A stretch of DNA of 64,000 bases from a virus (taxonomy: Duplodnaviria; Caudoviricetes): positions 64,001 through 128,000 of IMG/VR virus record IMGVR_UViG_3300042275_000518. One strand, written 5' to 3'. The position numbers were made by a program, and so were the translations under genes. The notes beneath the pieces are model-generated. The model made no database searches. It was not told where the DNA came from and saw only the letters and a program-made list of their open reading frames with translations. How positions within the stretch are numbered: the stretch's first letter is position 1; the number at the start of each line of letters is the position of its first letter. Shown here piece after piece: positions 23,237 to 41,564 of this stretch.

Positions 23237-23278
23237 AATCTTTTACCATCCTTTTCTAATTTTTTTTTAGAATTAAAT

Positions 23279-23341
23279 GGTAGTCTGGCGATCCCTTAGG
23301 GACCCATGACTTTGTGCCCATACATTACTGCATGTTTACCC
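23279..23341 (-). promoter_or_regulatory. c-di-GMP-I (GEMM-I) type riboswitch
   Basis: GGGUAAAC-AUGCA-GUAA-UGUAU-GGGCACAAAG-UCAUGGGUCC-CUAA-GGGAUCGCCAGACUACC fits GEMM-I architecture; 5' leader of the 22736-23236 gene. Confidence 0.7.
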
Positions 23342-23393
23342 TTACATTTTTTTCTTATTATTTAAATAATTGTTATAAATATTTTAAATATTT

Positions 23394-32375: not shown

Positions 32376-32715
32376 TGGTGGAGGTGAGGGGAGTCGAACC
32401 CCTGTCCAAAACAAAATTCATTAGACTTTCTACATAGTTAGATTATTGTTTGATTTTCGTACACTGATAACAATATTCTAAAATCAAGTGTATATAACTC
32501 CCCTTATTTCTTATACTGCTCGGAGTACCGCAAGTATAAACAGTCTGATAACTGGCGTTAGATATAATACTCAGACGATATTATAGTAACGTTCGACCTC
32601 TTCTTAGGCGAAAGCTAATTCTTGTGTGTTTGCGTTTATATTTTGTTTGATGATTACGTCATCGCTCGCTATGCTTATCTAATTTCATTCATCCTGTCGA
32701 AACCATTACACCCCC
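32376..32715 (-). ncRNA. ssrA: tmRNA, tag ANTQELAFA (32633-32604)
   Basis: GGGGGUGUAAUGGUUUCGAC 5' end, GGUUCGACUCC...CACCUCCACCA 3' end, Ala-ending tag ORF. Confidence 0.95.
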
Positions 32716-33624: not shown

Positions 33625-33825
33625 TTACTGAACTACAGTAACTTCAACTGCTTGTAGACCACGGTCAGACTCTTGAGTTTCAAACGTTACCGCTTGACCT
33701 TCTTCAAGTGTCTTGAAACCTTCTGCTACGATGTTTGTGAAATGTACGAATACATCTTTTCCGTCTTCTGCTGTGATAAAACCAAAGCCTTTCTCAGCAT
33801 TAAACCATTTTACAGTTCCATTCAT
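33625..33825 (-). CDS. csp: cold-shock protein
   Basis: [17 protein letters not shown]...DVFVHF; AGGAGG RBS. Confidence 0.95.
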
Positions 33826-33952
33826 TAGGGTGTTTCCTCCTTTTTTAGTGTTGCTTAGTGTTGATAAAAGGAGCAAATCCCTTTATTACTACTAGCTTAA
33901 ATTGAGCAGTTAAAAGCGTGCTCAGGCTAGACTTTTTAGGACTTTTCGGTCC

Positions 33953-34815
33953 GCCTGAGATAGGTTTAGAGTCTCTATTCCGACTATATCGCCCATATAG
34001 TATTTTCAATGCAAGAAGTTCGTTAGGCTCCGATACCAGTTCTGAGCTGGCGTGCTACAATCTACACTATTACATTTTTATGTGAAGAGTAATTCCTCTT
34101 CGGCGATATGCTCTCATTCCAACCAGGTCACCTCTGGAAGCTACAAGGCTTGTGAGTCTCTGTATGTGTTTGCTTAACGTCCCTGGAATGAAGGACATAA
34201 CTCTTTCAAGTCATTTACGGATGATTCTCTTTACATCCATCAAGGATAGTTTGGTAAACCTACTATCAAGGTTGAATAGCTTGCCGCACTATTCTATCCG
34301 CTTCCCCGGTTAACCAAGTCCAATTAAGGTTCCGGGAGTCTTGGCTTTATAGTATCTTTAGTTCGGGTTTTCCACCCATGGCTCGGATATAGAACCTGAC
34401 TCTGTCATGACGCTGGACAACGTATATTGATCTTTGTTACTATTTCTAGTAGACCAACTAGAGACAACCTGTTTGGATCGTGCCTTGATCCTCCGTGGAA
34501 GTTTTATAACTGTACGGAACTAGTTAGATGAAGGCTAGCCGCTTTTGCCTTCTACTACCATAATACTGGGAATTTCCCCGTGGGTTTCTTTCCATTTAAG
34601 GAGTGGACGGTAGATTACACCCTGAACCAATAACGGCTTCCTGGAAAGTATACAACTAATTTACGGTTTTGGGTGTCAGCCAAAGAAAGAAGTAAGTATA
34701 TACATAGCCAGGAAAAAATGCGCCCTTTTCTGGACGACTTTGGCTTGTTTTGGAGACCTAACTGAGATTCCCCTCAGTAACGCTAATGGATGCCACTCCT
34801 CACGTATATTGGCCA
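33953..34815 (-). ncRNA. large structured ncRNA, GOLLD/ROOL-like
   Basis: ~860 nt without a >=60-aa ORF, GC-enriched, many hairpins and long-range pairings, immediately 3' of tRNA-Asp; family not confirmed. Confidence 0.55.
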
Positions 34816-34817
34816 TA

Positions 34818-34894
34818 TGGCGGTCCTGACGGGAGTTGAACCCGCTACCCTCTGAGTGACAGTCAGAGATGCAAAACCGTTACACCTCAGGACC
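34818..34894 (-). tRNA. tRNA-Asp(GTC)
   Basis: cloverleaf, CCA. Confidence 0.9.
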
Positions 34895-35148: not shown

Positions 35149-35237
35149 TGGCGGAAGGAAGAGGTGTCGATCCCCATACCCGTAAAGGTACGATCAGTTT
35201 TCAAGACTGTCCTACAGGCCGCTGCAGTTTTCCTTCC
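35149..35237 (-). tRNA. tRNA-Ser(TGA), atypical D and T loops
   Basis: long variable arm, G73, CCA. Confidence 0.8.
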
Positions 35238-38437: not shown

Positions 38438-40576
38438 TTACATGTAAGTTGCAATCTTTTCTAGGTCATACGGAGTGATGTCTCCATCTTCCGCAATCAC
38501 TATGTCTGCATCTTCTCGGTTATCAACAATTTCACCACGAGCTTCGGCATTTAGCACAAAGATATCGTATACACTCAATCTGTTACGATCGATGTAAGAA
38601 CGAATATGGTCGAAGATTGCGTCACTTTGAGATGTTGCAACTCGTGTAGAACGGTTAGCATGCATATTCACATCTAACCAAACAACTTCTTTTTCTTCAA
38701 GATTGATAAGATAACTTATCGCTGATCCTGAAGGAGAAGTCATTCTAAAGATATTTTCAACCGTTTTAGGGTCAAAAGTTTTACCTTTAGTTAATTCTTC
38801 TCTAGGCATAAATCCACCAAAGACTTCATGGAATTCCTTGAATTGTGGGCCGCTAAAGACATTATTTGTCAACGCAATGTAATGAATACCTTGTGCAAAT
38901 GCTTCATCAAGTTTTACGTCAATGAATTCACTTGCTCCGCGGCTTCCATCTACGATGTCACCTGAGTGAGTTACGACTGTGCTGTAATCACGACTATAAC
39001 TATGCCAGCTAACTTCACCAATATATTTACCGTTTTCATCGTAGAACAATGCAGCGGTATCAATGTCAGTACGTTGTCCTGGCGTATGCCAATAAGTGAA
39101 GAATCGAACGTTTTTACCTTCTATTTTGAATTTACTACCTTTAGCTGGAATTTTCACTCCATCAGAAGCAGTTCTTTCATCAGTAGGTAGAGCATAGTTT
39201 TTCATTTCTTCCGAAATGTAGACTTTACCCATTTCTTCACGTTCTGCGTATGCATTACGCAATGCAGTCTTAACAGAGTCTTGAATGTTAAGAACAAGTT
39301 CAGGTGCAAGAGCTCCTAAGTTATTGTCGATGACTTTAACTTTTGAAGATTTACCTTTGAGTACGAATACTCTCTTGTCTTTTTGTTCAAGTCTGTCTTC
39401 AAAGTGTTCGAATAATTGAATAAGTACTGGACTAGCCACTTCTTTTCCAACTTCTCCAAATGCTTCTAAAACTGCTTTTGTATCAAATCCAGCTTCTCTG
39501 ACTAGTAAGTCAAGCTTTCTAGCAAATTCACCAGGTCTTGATTTCAACATTTTAAGTACAGATTCAGTATCTCTCTCAGCTAATGCTTTTTCAAGATTAG
39601 AATTGAAAGTACGAATTTTTCCATACTCATTTTCGTTTCTAAGTTTTTGGAACGCTTTGAAAGCCTTTGTATAACGTTTAGAATATTCACCTGGGTGAAG
39701 TCTTTCTCCTAAACGAGTCCATTGACCTTGGTAACGTTTCATATCCTCAGTAACGTTTTTCTTGCTTGCTACTGCATCGATTAAAGATAACAATGTTCTA
39801 CGAGTAGAACGATTGAAATTTTTGAATCGAGTGTTTTCAGTAAGCGTTTCATCACCATTTGATAGTGATGCAGCAAGGCGTAAGACATCATTGACTTGAG
39901 CTTTTTCAAACCATTTTGTCATATAAGATGCTTTAGTATCTCTGTCGAGAACTGTTGTATCTTTATGATTAATGAAATAAGAAGTTACAAAAGCCAGATT
40001 TTCTTTCATAGGTACTTCTTCTGGAAGAGCTTTTGCGCCATATGTGTTGATTAATTCAAGAACACGTTCTTTATTAGCATCAGAGATACTAGTACGTGAG
40101 CTTAAGAAATCAACAGAGATTTGTGCAAGAACTTTATCAGTTTCTTCCATTGTGATTACTGACAACACACGAGGTTTTGTCTTTTCATCAAATGGCAAAC
40201 GATGTTGCTCATCTTGGAAGTCTGATAGTTTGAATTCTCCACCAGTTAAATAATGCATGATTGCATTAAAATACCATTGGCCTTCCTCAAGGTTGTAAAC
40301 ATCCTCTGGGAAGTTTTTATAGAAAGTCACATGTTGAACGTGATCTCCCTTGCTTTGTTTCAATAGTCCAAATGTTGAACTATAGAACTCTGCCAAATCT
40401 TGTTCACTAAATGTTGAGATTTTTTCGATACTTTCAGTATCAAGAATATAACCAACACTTGCAAAACTTTCTAATAATTTTCCGATAAGTGTCTCTCCCA
40501 CACCTTCGGTACTTGGAGTTGAACTAGTTGCTACGTAACCTTTTACTAACAATAATTCTTTAATTTCTTTCTTCAT
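38438..40576 (-). CDS. 712-aa protein: large helical N-region + C-terminal TerD-like domain
   Basis: LGERLHPGEY, RPGEFARKLDLL; C-terminal DIDTAALFY...HSGDIVDG..GASEFIDV TerD-type motifs. Confidence 0.7.
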   Translation of the reverse strand: MKKEIKELLLVKGYVATSSTPSTEGVGETLIGKLLESFASVGYILDTESIEKISTFSEQDLAEFYSSTFGLLKQSKGDHVQHVTFYKNFPEDVYNLEEGQWYFNAIMHYLTGGEFKLSDFQDEQHRLPFDEKTKPRVLSVITMEETDKVLAQISVDFLSSRTSISDANKERVLELINTYGAKALPEEVPMKENLAFVTSYFINHKDTTVLDRDTKASYMTKWFEKAQVNDVLRLAASLSNGDETLTENTRFKNFNRSTRRTLLSLIDAVASKKNVTEDMKRYQGQWTRLGERLHPGEYSKRYTKAFKAFQKLRNENEYGKIRTFNSNLEKALAERDTESVLKMLKSRPGEFARKLDLLVREAGFDTKAVLEAFGEVGKEVASPVLIQLFEHFEDRLEQKDKRVFVLKGKSSKVKVIDNNLGALAPELVLNIQDSVKTALRNAYAEREEMGKVYISEEMKNYALPTDERTASDGVKIPAKGSKFKIEGKNVRFFTYWHTPGQRTDIDTAALFYDENGKYIGEVSWHSYSRDYSTVVTHSGDIVDGSRGASEFIDVKLDEAFAQGIHYIALTNNVFSGPQFKEFHEVFGGFMPREELTKGKTFDPKTVENIFRMTSPSGSAISYLINLEEKEVVWLDVNMHANRSTRVATSQSDAIFDHIRSYIDRNRLSVYDIFVLNAEARGEIVDNREDADIVIAEDGDITPYDLEKIATYM

Positions 40577-40624: not shown

Positions 40625-41564
40625 ACCTGGGAATGCTTTAACTAATTTGTAGTAGGTCCAGGATCATAGGAAACCCATGATCTCCGGATCTTTCGATCTA
40701 TTAGAAGTAAGCTAAAAGATAGCCAGGTGTATTAACGAAAGAAAGCCGGTAATTAAATAACTTTTATTCATCCATTTGAGTTTTTAGAAGTAAGTATATT
40801 ATAGCCGGCAATTGTAAATATACAAAATCTGATTGGTTTGATTCCTAGTCAAATTATTTTTCTTAAGTAGAGTGTTAAAAGCATAAATAAGTACACAATC
40901 AGAATTGCATTTATAAAAATAAGGTAATTTCATCACTGAAGTCAATTTAACGGATTGGTGGGGATACCCCCTAGAAGTAAGTAAATTGAATAGCCTTAAT
41001 TTTTAACAAAATAATGCTTGGAAAGTATTTATCTATCTTTACTAATGCTCTACCAGTTGAGCTACATGACCGTGGTCATGGCTGGATTCGAACCAACAAC
41101 CCTTAGTCCCTAATAGAAGTAAGACACAATATAGCCAAGCGTTATAAATATAATTTAAACTGGTAAGTCTATATCCTTTTATCACCCTAATCGCTCGTGT
41201 TACGGAGCGAATGTTGGATTCGAACCAACGATCTTATTAGAAGTATGATATTAGATAGCCAGTATTAAAATCAAATTTTACAGGTAATTTTACAACTATT
41301 ATATTATTGTATTATATTAGAAGTAAGTATATAAATAGCCTGCTTATAATAATCCGGTAAGTATTTGAGATTCAAAAAACGTTGTAATACAAATTGTAGA
41401 ATCTCCGTAGAGATTCCTCTCATCATATTATAAAATAGAAGTAACTCGAGATTTTCTTTATTTTTCAACGCGCCCATCTCTATAGCCGGAATTATAAATA
41501 TATTAAATCCAGGTAATTACATAACTATCTTTTACCAATTAGAAGTAAGTATAGCATAGCCTGG
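40625..41564 (-). ncRNA. tandem array of 8 related small structured RNAs (Y-RNA-like)
   Basis: each unit: terminal stem-GG-CUAU...UACUUCUA-variable insert...UU[A/U/C]-CC-stem; units 40625-40728, 40745-40809, 40920-40998, 41011-41145, 41159-41263, 41281-41342, 41353-41490, 41509-41564. Confidence 0.8.

What the first reader, a model, noticed from the sequence alone, without database searches (positions are those of the whole stretch)
34638..34714. A ninth copy of the array module is built into the large ncRNA
Seen: UUCCUGG-CUAU-GUAUA-UA-CUUACUUCU...AGUUGUAUAC-UUU-CCAGGAA matches the array consensus, 6 kb from the array. It is enclosed by a long-range helix (AGGAGUGG 34800-34793 with CCACUCCU 34606-34599). 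Its variable loop is complementary to both flanks (CUUUGGCU with upstream AGCCAAAG; ACACCC with downstream GGGUGU). Inference: the large RNA carries a docking site for the same 712-aa protein, linking a GOLLD/ROOL-type RNA to a protein partner.
Basis: partly seen in the sequence, partly recalled or inferred. Interest (0 to 1): 0.82.

Follow-up and report, generated by a model that had tools for sequence, protein, structure and literature searches.

The report
Orphan Y-RNA-like handle beside tRNA-Asp
A ninth, solitary copy of the small RNA "handle" that travels with a Ro60-like phage protein really does sit 6 kb from the main array, but related phages show it is a separable hairpin slotted between independent conserved RNA pieces, not a built-in part of a GOLLD/ROOL-type giant RNA.

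Summary
The hairpin at 34637-34715 (minus strand) is a true ninth copy of the array module. A covariance model built without it scores it at 51.3 bits (E about 8e-11). It is the only copy outside the array in the 190-kb phage record.

The module family lies beside homologues of the 712-aa protein in four bacterial loci from three phyla and in five phage lineages. The protein's helical half is closest in fold to Ro60 (VIA-align Z 9-12), with TerD in place of vWA. This scan has already found the same protein-RNA pair on other DNA, in at least 14 genomes.

The rest of the finding holds less well:
- No Rfam family, GOLLD and ROOL included, matches 33870-34830.
- Six related lineages show a patchwork there: a 100-nt element A in all, the module in some, and elements B, C and D present or absent independently.
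- Three lineages keep the module core unchanged but carry unrelated loops. One lineage replaces the module.
- The enclosing helix is not conserved, and its 5' strand pairs locally with compensatory changes.
- The loop-flank complementarities are at chance level.

Best reading: an autonomous, selectively kept handle RNA in the tRNA island. Whether it is released or acts within a long transcript is untested.

The parts
34637..34715 (-). Ninth (orphan) handle module. P1 34715-34708 / 34644-34637; CUAU 34707-34704; P2 34703-34695 / 34657-34650; UACUUCU 34694-34688; variable loop 34687-34658; 3' internal loop ACUUU 34649-34645.
   Evidence: (51.3 bits, E 8e-11). Orthologues: L140 1607-1661 (59.3 bits) and L146 1819-1886 (56.1 bits).
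34719..34818 (-). Element A: a conserved 100-nt structured RNA directly after tRNA-Asp. It holds GAGGAGUGG (the claimed 5' strand of the enclosing helix) and AGCCAAAG.
   Evidence: Present in all 7 lineages, at 82-87% identity even in the otherwise unrelated contigs L157-L159. Consensus fold with covarying hairpins and a local GGA/UCC pairing that changes A-U to G-C. No Rfam hit.
34818..34894 (-). tRNA-Asp(GUC), the last tRNA of the island before the non-coding stretch.
   Evidence: The order tRNA-Asp, then RNA stretch, then cspA is the same in L138, L140/L142 and L146.
34527..34636 (-). Element B: an optional segment 3' of the module. It holds CCACUCCUU (34606-34598).
   Evidence: Present only in the window and the L146 lineage. 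Absent in L140, L138 and the X19 contig.
34246..34526 (-). Element C: a conserved structured core.
   Evidence: 92-95% identical in L138 and L140, about 76% in L146. 14 predicted pairs change on both sides. Contig depth 362 in a sediment RNA library.
33899..34245 (-). Element D: an optional segment ahead of the cspA leader.
   Evidence: Present in the window and L138. Absent in L140 and replaced in L146.
40625..41564 (-). Array of eight handle modules upstream of the protein gene. Inserts are variable and two are tRNA-like.
   Evidence: The insert of module 5 hits the tRNA-like part of Rfam YrlA at E 3e-8, below gathering.
38438..40576 (-). 712-aa protein: an N-terminal helical Ro60-like ring and a C-terminal TerD domain. 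It is the presumed partner of the modules.
   Evidence: TerD Z 14.8; Ro60 Z 12.0, 11.0 and 9.3; domain alone: Ro60 Z 10.3 and 8.8, ranks 1-2 of 48,161.
33625..33825 (-). cspA-like gene (66 aa) that bounds the non-coding stretch.

Best explanation
The hairpin is a functional, selectively maintained ninth paralogue of the phage's Y-RNA-like handle RNA.

The handle consists of P1 ending in GG/CC, the CUAU/NNUUN internal loop, P2 and UACUUCU. It is inferred to be the docking site of the Ro60-like/TerD protein encoded 4 kb away, and the apical loop is a freely variable cargo.

The copy is an autonomous unit. It lies in the tRNA island immediately 3' of a conserved 100-nt RNA (element A), at a junction where related phages carry different pieces. 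The flanking RNA does not need it in order to fold, and it does not need the flank.

Most likely it is transcribed with the tRNA-Asp/non-coding precursor and works, released or not, as one more small partner RNA of the protein, not as a structural part of a giant RNA.

Shown here: identity with the module family, conservation of the core with a hypervariable loop, separability from the flanks, co-occurrence of the module with the protein family, and the Ro60-like fold.

Inferred: protein binding, co-transcription, processing, and the biological role (RNA surveillance or repair around phage tRNAs, by analogy with Ro60/Y RNA).
For: - Model R1, built without this copy, scores it at 51.3 bits. No other copy lies outside the array in 190 kb.
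- Three lineages keep the orphan copy at the same site. Their partner proteins are 100% and 88% identical, plus a 76%-identical protein found in the same sample as the third lineage. P1 and P2 are nearly unchanged, but the loops are 30, 14 and 27 nt of unrelated sequence, while the flanks are 76-95% identical.
- The flanks vary independently. L140 and the X19 contig keep the module without element B. X19 has a 91-nt insert between element A and the module. L138/X14 replace the module and B with a 79-nt unrelated hairpin. L157-L159 have element A only.
- Element A closes on itself, with covariation.
- The module family covaries strongly: 94.7% of cells are paired, and the covariation score is 0.745 against 0.163 in shuffles (0/500).
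- The module lies next to the protein gene in 4 bacterial loci and 5 phage lineages. Several of these were found by the RNA pattern alone.
- The protein has a Ro60-like fold.
Against: - No RNA ends are known. The only RNA-library data are contigs, and one such contig runs from element A through the module into element C. A long transcript that contains the module is therefore possible.
- In this window a 9-bp helix does enclose the module and is in the MFE fold. Only 2% of shuffles reach its energy, and the L146 lineage keeps a weakened version.
- Protein binding is inferred from co-occurrence only.
- The Ro60 likeness rests on VIA-align Z 9-12 for a helical repeat, which is a range where chance arrangements occur. 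Neither Foldseek nor Pfam sees Ro60/TROVE.
Confidence: 0.55

Rival explanations
1. The stretch from tRNA-Asp to cspA is one long multi-domain RNA, and the handle is a built-in docking arm that recruits the Ro60-like/TerD protein to it. This would make a large RNA-protein particle.
For: - The stretch is ORF-free in all six frames, with all three stop codons in every frame. Its GC content is 43% against 31% for the window.
- Elements A and C show covariation.
- The element order is syntenic in four lineages.
- In this window a 9-bp helix encloses the module.
- An RNA-library contig spans element A, the module and the start of C.
- The orphan copy has been kept at this exact site through three lineages.
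Against: - Elements B, C and D and the module assort independently among relatives, which an integrated fold should not tolerate.
- The enclosing helix is absent or at chance level elsewhere, and its 5' strand has a covarying local partner.
- The loop-flank pairings are at chance level.
- The whole-region fold gives only z -2.5 against -1.8 for the opposite strand.
- No GOLLD/ROOL or other Rfam match.
Confidence: 0.3
2. The copy no longer serves the protein. It is either a relic of recombination between the array and the tRNA island, or it has been taken over as a plain stabilising or processing hairpin at the junction between RNA elements.
For: - It lies at a junction that is clearly prone to recombination.
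- One lineage has swapped it for an unrelated hairpin of similar size.
- The A that follows UACUUCU in all eight array copies is U or C in the three orphan orthologues.
Against: - The unpaired signature nucleotides (CUAU, UACUUCU, NNUUN) are invariant in three lineages while the loop between them is completely replaced. A mere stem would not require this.
- Its model score is as high as that of the array members.
Confidence: 0.1
3. The handle-plus-variable-loop units are guide-like RNAs. The hypervariable loop of the orphan copy would then target another nucleic acid by base pairing.
For: The scaffold is conserved and the loop is fully replaced between close relatives, as with guide RNAs.
Against: - No match of 13 nt or more to the orphan loop, in either orientation, anywhere in the 190-kb record.
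- Some loops are tRNA-like domains, not plausible guides.
- The protein shows no recognisable nuclease domain.
Confidence: 0.05

Closest known systems
Ro60 (Rsr) with Y RNAs, especially bacterial and phage YrlA/YrlB (Chen et al. 2014, PMC4201824; Rfam RF02553; Thermus phage phiLo Ro60, PMC12135203)
   Same: - A ring-shaped helical protein encoded next to one or several small stem-loop RNAs.
- A conserved stem or internal loop serves as the handle, and the distal part is variable and sometimes tRNA-like.
- It occurs in phages among tRNA genes.
- One bacterial locus has a sigma-54 activator upstream, as RtcR is for rsr-yrlBA-rtcBA.
- Structural matches are to the three solved Ro60 proteins.
   Different: - No TROVE signal by Pfam in any of 50 homologues.
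- A TerD domain stands where Ro60 has vWA.
- The RNA signature GG-CUAU...U(A/C)CUUCUA is unlike the GNCGAA / GGUCCGA Ro site.
- The orphan copy has no tRNA-like domain and gives no YrlA hit.
GOLLD and ROOL large ornate RNAs (Rfam; RNA-only multimers by cryo-EM, PMC12286853)
   Same: A long ORF-free, structured, GC-enriched stretch in a phage next to tRNA genes. Relatives are abundant in an RNA library.
   Different: - No match to any of the 4227 Rfam models, even at E up to 10.
- The stretch is a mosaic whose pieces come and go among close relatives.
- GOLLD and ROOL are reported as RNA-only assemblies with no known protein partner.
The eight array modules of this same phage, and dispersed 'handle' RNAs of the same protein family noted elsewhere in this scan (e1-5746337, e1-5824430, e1-5341766)
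   Same: The same handle anatomy and model score range. The location among tRNA genes fits the dispersed copies reported for other giant phages.
   Different: - It is solitary, 6 kb from the gene.
- It is flanked by GC-rich conserved RNA elements, not AT-rich spacers (in this window).
- Its P1 is longer, at 8 bp.
- The base after UACUUCU is U or C, not A.

Membership tests
Handle (Y-RNA-like) module family of the Ro-like/TerD protein | Terminal stem P1 ending in GG...CC, with covarying outer pairs | tested here: met
   UUUCCUGG/CCAGGAAG, 8 bp. In the family the GG/CC pairs are invariant and the outer pairs covary.
Handle (Y-RNA-like) module family of the Ro-like/TerD protein | Asymmetric internal loop: CUAU on the 5' side, 5 nt NNUUN on the 3' side | tested here: met
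   CUAU at 34707-34704 and ACUUU at 34649-34645. Array module 5 has the same ACUUU.
Handle (Y-RNA-like) module family of the Ro-like/TerD protein | P2 of about 8-9 bp followed directly by U(A/C)CUUCU(A) | tested here: met
   GUAUA[U]ACU/AGUUGUAU followed by UACUUCU. The following base is U, not the usual A. P2 pairs covary across the family.
Handle (Y-RNA-like) module family of the Ro-like/TerD protein | Significant score against a model built from other members | tested here: met
   51.3 bits, E 8e-11 with R1, which excludes this copy and its orthologues.
Handle (Y-RNA-like) module family of the Ro-like/TerD protein | Lies beside, or in the same genome as, the ~600-740-aa helical+TerD protein gene | tested here: met
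   Same genome, about 4 kb from the gene end and 6 kb from the array. The orthologous orphan copy in L140/L142 belongs to the phage of L115, which has the 742-aa gene. The L146-lineage RNA (contig L147) and a 76%-identical protein come from the same sample.
Handle (Y-RNA-like) module family of the Ro-like/TerD protein | Physically binds the protein | not testable with these tools
   Inferred only from co-occurrence.
GOLLD / ROOL (Rfam large ornate RNAs), for the surrounding 33900-34820 stretch | Match to the family covariance model | tested here: not met
   No hit at gathering score, nor at E up to 1 or 10 with lax filters, on 33870-34830. None in the relatives either.
GOLLD / ROOL (Rfam large ornate RNAs), for the surrounding 33900-34820 stretch | One coherent conserved multi-domain fold | tested here: not met
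   Elements B, C and D and the module are independently present or absent in close relatives. Only the 100-nt element A is shared with more distant ones.
Y RNA / YrlA (Rfam RF02553) | GNCGAAN0-1G (or GGUCCGA) Ro-binding motif near the 5' end, and a tRNA-like T/D domain | tested here: not met
   Neither the motif nor a tRNA-like domain is in the orphan copy, and there is no YrlA hit at 34637-34715. Only array module 5 hits the YrlA tRNA-like part, below gathering.
Ro60/TROVE protein family (for the partner protein) | TROVE domain detectable by sequence profile (Pfam) | tested here: not met
   No TROVE hit at E up to 1 in any of 50 family members. The PDB sequence search finds only TerD.
Ro60/TROVE protein family (for the partner protein) | Ro60-like helical ring fold | tested here: inconclusive
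   VIA-align over the whole PDB set: Ro60 of phiLo, Xenopus and D. radiodurans score Z 12.0, 11.0 and 9.3, with the next hit at 6.8. For the N-terminal domain alone, Z is 10.3 and 8.8 at ranks 1-2. Foldseek shows no Ro60 match, and Z below about 13 can be non-specific for helical repeats.

The most novel reading that the evidence does not exclude
The tRNA-Asp-to-cspA stretch is made as one long modular scaffold RNA. Element A is a universal 5' domain, followed by exchangeable cargo domains. One cargo slot carries a handle that loads the Ro60-like/TerD protein. This would be the first large phage non-coding RNA with a defined protein partner. The hypervariable handle loop would tune what the particle acts on.
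Probability: 0.2. Interest if true: 0.8.

Novelty: new variant of a known kind. Interest (0 to 1): 0.55.

Why it matters
I found no paper describing the handle RNA and its Ro60-like/TerD partner, and no Rfam or Pfam family matches them. The pair looks like an undescribed cousin of the Ro60/Y-RNA particle. It is widespread in bacteria and large phages, and it is tied to tRNA islands.

This orphan copy adds three useful facts:
- Handle RNAs can be kept as solitary genes far from the protein gene.
- Selection holds the handle fixed while the loop turns over completely between close relatives. This marks the loop as the cargo or specificity part.
- The copy sits in a recombining patchwork of conserved, apparently abundant non-coding RNAs, elements A and C. 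These belong to no Rfam family.

The copy gives a compact natural substrate of about 80 nt for binding and structural work. It also sets up a simple test, by end mapping, of whether such handles act free or inside long RNAs.

The attractive idea that it links GOLLD/ROOL-type RNAs to a protein is not supported.

Tried and rejected
- Known RNA family for the stretch: Rfam at gathering score, and at E up to 1 and 10, gave nothing for 33870-34830 or for the module. The relatives gave nothing either.
- Hidden protein gene or recoded ORF: all three stop codons occur in all six frames, and the longest open run is 75 codons.
- Homologues in the deposited phage collection: none by blastn.
- IMG/VR scans with a 20-mer and a 21-mer from the RNA: 0 hits.
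- Protein-based locus search in IMG/VR: none.
- Relatives of a virus record cannot be drawn.
- Near-identical contigs L117-L122 carry no variation.
- The first RNA-pattern scan of IMG/VR was mostly chance hits. Only L009, L025, L093, L108 and L109 were real.
- Terminator reading of the hairpin plus U6 at 34736-34721: the U-run is not conserved in relatives, and part of it is P1.
- Guide-RNA reading: the orphan loop has no match of 13 nt or more, in either orientation, in the 190-kb record.
- Ro60 by sequence or by Foldseek: not seen. Only VIA-align shows it.
- Literature search for a TerD / Y-RNA link: nothing relevant. The jumbo-phage review treats TerD only as part of Ter systems.
- RNA ends and expression level: only assembled contigs of RNA libraries were on offer, so no ends or strand could be read.
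- The MAFFT alignment that mixed bacterial and phage modules was offset by one column at the 3' end. It was not used for the model.

Full report
CONTEXT. The window is bases 64001-128000 of a 189,901-nt IMG/VR virus record, estimated 74% complete. All features below are on the minus strand. Rfam finds 24 tRNA matches, a tmRNA (32376-32715), three group I introns and a c-di-GMP-I riboswitch. The finding lies between tRNA-Asp (34818-34894) and a cspA-like gene (33625-33825). This is a stretch of about 900 nt that has all three stop codons in every frame and 43% GC, against 31% for the window.

THE OBSERVATION. The palindromic ends TTCCTGG...CCAGGAA occur once against 0 expected. The word CTTACTTCT occurs exactly seven times, all on the minus strand: six in the array at 40625-41564 and one here. 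A looser pattern hits eight times in the whole 190-kb record, all in the array or this copy. The eight array units precede a 712-aa ORF (38438-40576).

Parsing all the copies gives the shared anatomy. P1 ends in GG/CC. The internal loop is CUAU opposite five nucleotides NNUUN. P2 is 8-9 bp, often with one bulge. U(A/C)CUUCU(A) follows, and then a free loop of 10 to more than 100 nt. I built covariance model R1 from 11 phage-type modules, leaving out this copy and its orthologues. R1 scores 34641-34711 at 51.3 bits (E 8e-11), within the range of array members. It finds no other copy in the record. Alone, the hairpin folds as drawn, with z -3.84. The module claim is therefore confirmed.

WHAT THE MODULE IS. 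The 712-aa protein has more than 550 homologues of about 690 aa. Where they carry a name, it is 'TerD family protein' or 'stress response protein SCP2'. The RNA module lies beside the gene in four bacterial loci:
- Bacillus solimangrovi (two copies downstream, L116)
- Niallia taxi (two copies, L127)
- a Verrucomicrobiota MAG (one copy upstream, L128)
- a Chitinophagales MAG (one copy, L129)

It also lies beside the gene in these phage contigs:
- L115, with an 88%-identical protein and five modules
- L093, L108/L109 and L025, which were fetched by the RNA pattern alone and then turned out to encode a 28%-identical homologue next to the modules

R1 was trained on phage copies only, yet it recovers the bacterial ones. 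Across 27 distinct copies, 94.7% of cells pair. Ten of twelve pairs change on both sides, and the covariation score is 0.745 against 0.163 in shuffles (0/500). Slid controls score 0.09 or less. The caveat is that this alignment is fitted to the model.

An AlphaFold model of the protein (pLDDT 87.8) has a C-terminal TerD domain (Foldseek E 5e-5; VIA Z 14.8). In an all-against-48,161-chain comparison, the next three hits are the three solved Ro60 proteins: Thermus phage phiLo Z 12.0, Xenopus Z 11.0 and Deinococcus Rsr Z 9.3. The following hit scores 6.8. The N-terminal 470 residues modelled alone again rank phiLo Ro60 and Rsr first and second, at Z 10.3 and 8.8. Pfam sees no TROVE domain in any of 50 members, and Foldseek sees no Ro60. 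The relationship is therefore structural and of moderate confidence.

One array insert hits the tRNA-like part of Rfam YrlA (E 3e-8, below gathering). The handle signature differs from the Ro site GNCGAA/GGUCCGA described by Chen et al.. The pair thus works like Ro60/Y RNA but is not a member of that family by sequence. Earlier follow-ups of this scan reached the same reading on other DNA, in at least 14 genomes. I found no paper describing it.

IS THE COPY 'BUILT INTO' A LARGE RNA? No Rfam family, GOLLD and ROOL included, matches 33870-34830 even at E up to 10. To get comparative data I fetched contigs through the neighbouring CspA protein, with homologues at 94%, 89% and 85% identity. I also scanned for an invariant 21-mer and laid contigs of four public runs on the stretch. 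The stretch turns out to be a mosaic:
- Element A (34818-34719) is present in all seven lineages. It is 82-87% identical even in L157-L159, which share nothing else.
- The module is present in the window, in L140-L142 (the same phage as L115) and in L146-L151. It is also in an X16 DNA contig and an X19 RNA-library contig.
- The module is absent from L138/L139 and X14, where a 79-nt unrelated hairpin replaces the module plus element B. It is also absent from L157-L159 (no R1 hit).
- Element B (34636-34527) exists only in the window and the L146 lineage.
- Element C (34526-34246) is in four lineages.
- Element D (34245-33899) is in two.

The X19 contig reads as follows: element A, a 91-nt insert, the module closing with AUUA-CCAG, 20 nt, then element C. 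In that contig the module's flanks are both different.

Between the window and L146, the handle and its flanks are about 95% identical. The loop, however, is 30 nt against 27 nt of unrelated sequence, and L140 has a 14-nt loop. All three fold as the same hairpin, with z from -3.5 to -5.4. This pattern indicates selection on the handle, free turnover of the loop and independence from the flanks.

1. The enclosing helix GAGGAGUGG/CCACUCCUU is in the MFE fold, and only 2% of shuffles reach its energy here. In L146 the corresponding partner is no better than chance. In L138, L140 and L157-L159 no better-than-chance partner exists, although the 5' strand is invariant. A consensus fold of element A pairs the GGA of that strand with a local UCC, and this pair changes A-U to G-C in L146 and in L157. 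Two further hairpins covary.
2. The loop-to-flank complementarities are matched or beaten by 57% and 12% of shuffled loops, and they vanish in the orthologues.

Neither argument holds as evidence that the module is integrated.

WHAT REMAINS OPEN. Elements A and C are real structured RNAs. Covariation supports this, and relatives reach contig depths of 166-362 in a sediment RNA library. The region is therefore an island of non-coding RNAs that belong to no Rfam family. Only contigs were available, so neither transcript ends nor strand can be read. One RNA-library contig does bridge element A, the module and element C. I therefore favour the autonomous handle RNA reading at about 0.55 and keep the embedded docking-arm model at about 0.3. 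A relic or plain structural hairpin (0.1) and a guide-like role (0.05) are less likely. The orphan loop has no match of 13 nt or more in the phage record.

VERDICT. The ninth copy is real and conserved, and it is very probably a partner RNA of the Ro60-like/TerD protein. The link to GOLLD/ROOL and the 'built-in' architecture are not supported. The wider RNA-protein pair seems undescribed in the literature, but this scan has met it repeatedly. What is new here is a conserved solitary copy with a hypervariable loop, placed in a recombining non-coding RNA island.

Noticed in passing
window 34719-34818 (-); also L157 783-882, L158 271-370, L159 199-298: Element A is a 100-nt RNA directly after, or close to, a tRNA gene. 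It is 82-87% identical between otherwise unrelated phage-like contigs. It has an invariant GGUCUCCAAAACAAGCCAAAG and three hairpins that covary. It matches no Rfam family, and what follows it differs from lineage to lineage.
   Followed up: partly
window 34246-34526 (-): Element C is a conserved structured core with 14 predicted pairs changed on both sides among four lineages. Near-identical relatives form a contig of depth 362 in a sediment metatranscriptome and are also present in wastewater RNA and DNA runs. It matches no Rfam family.
   Followed up: partly
L158 843-1144: A metagenome contig that carries element A also has a weak bacterial RNase P class A match (42.7 bits, E 1.6e-10, below gathering) among tRNA genes. 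This echoes the phage RNase P RNA noted earlier for this genome.
   Followed up: no
L116 2501-3892: In Bacillus solimangrovi a sigma-54 enhancer-binding activator (PAS + Sigma54_activat + HTH_8) lies directly upstream of the Ro-like/TerD gene and its two handle RNAs. The layout recalls RtcR with rsr-yrlBA-rtcBA.
   Followed up: no
window 41349-41491 (-): Array unit 2 escapes both the sequence pattern and model R1. About 27 nt separate CUAU from UUACUUCU, and the unit carries a long insert. The count of eight array units therefore rests on manual reading for this unit.
   Followed up: partly
window 23276-23350 (-) and 63050-63995 (-): A c-di-GMP-I riboswitch (55.8 bits) and three tandem group I introns (81-111 bits) are present in this phage.
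   Followed up: no
window 35153-35237 (-): A tRNA-Sec model match just below gathering (44.6 against 47 bits) lies in the tRNA island. L138 and L140 have the same match where ARAGORN calls tRNA-Ser(UGA).
   Followed up: no
L138 1873-1951: In the lineage that lacks the orphan handle, the slot holds an unrelated 79-nt hairpin (UCUAUAG...CUAUAGA) of similar size.
   Followed up: no
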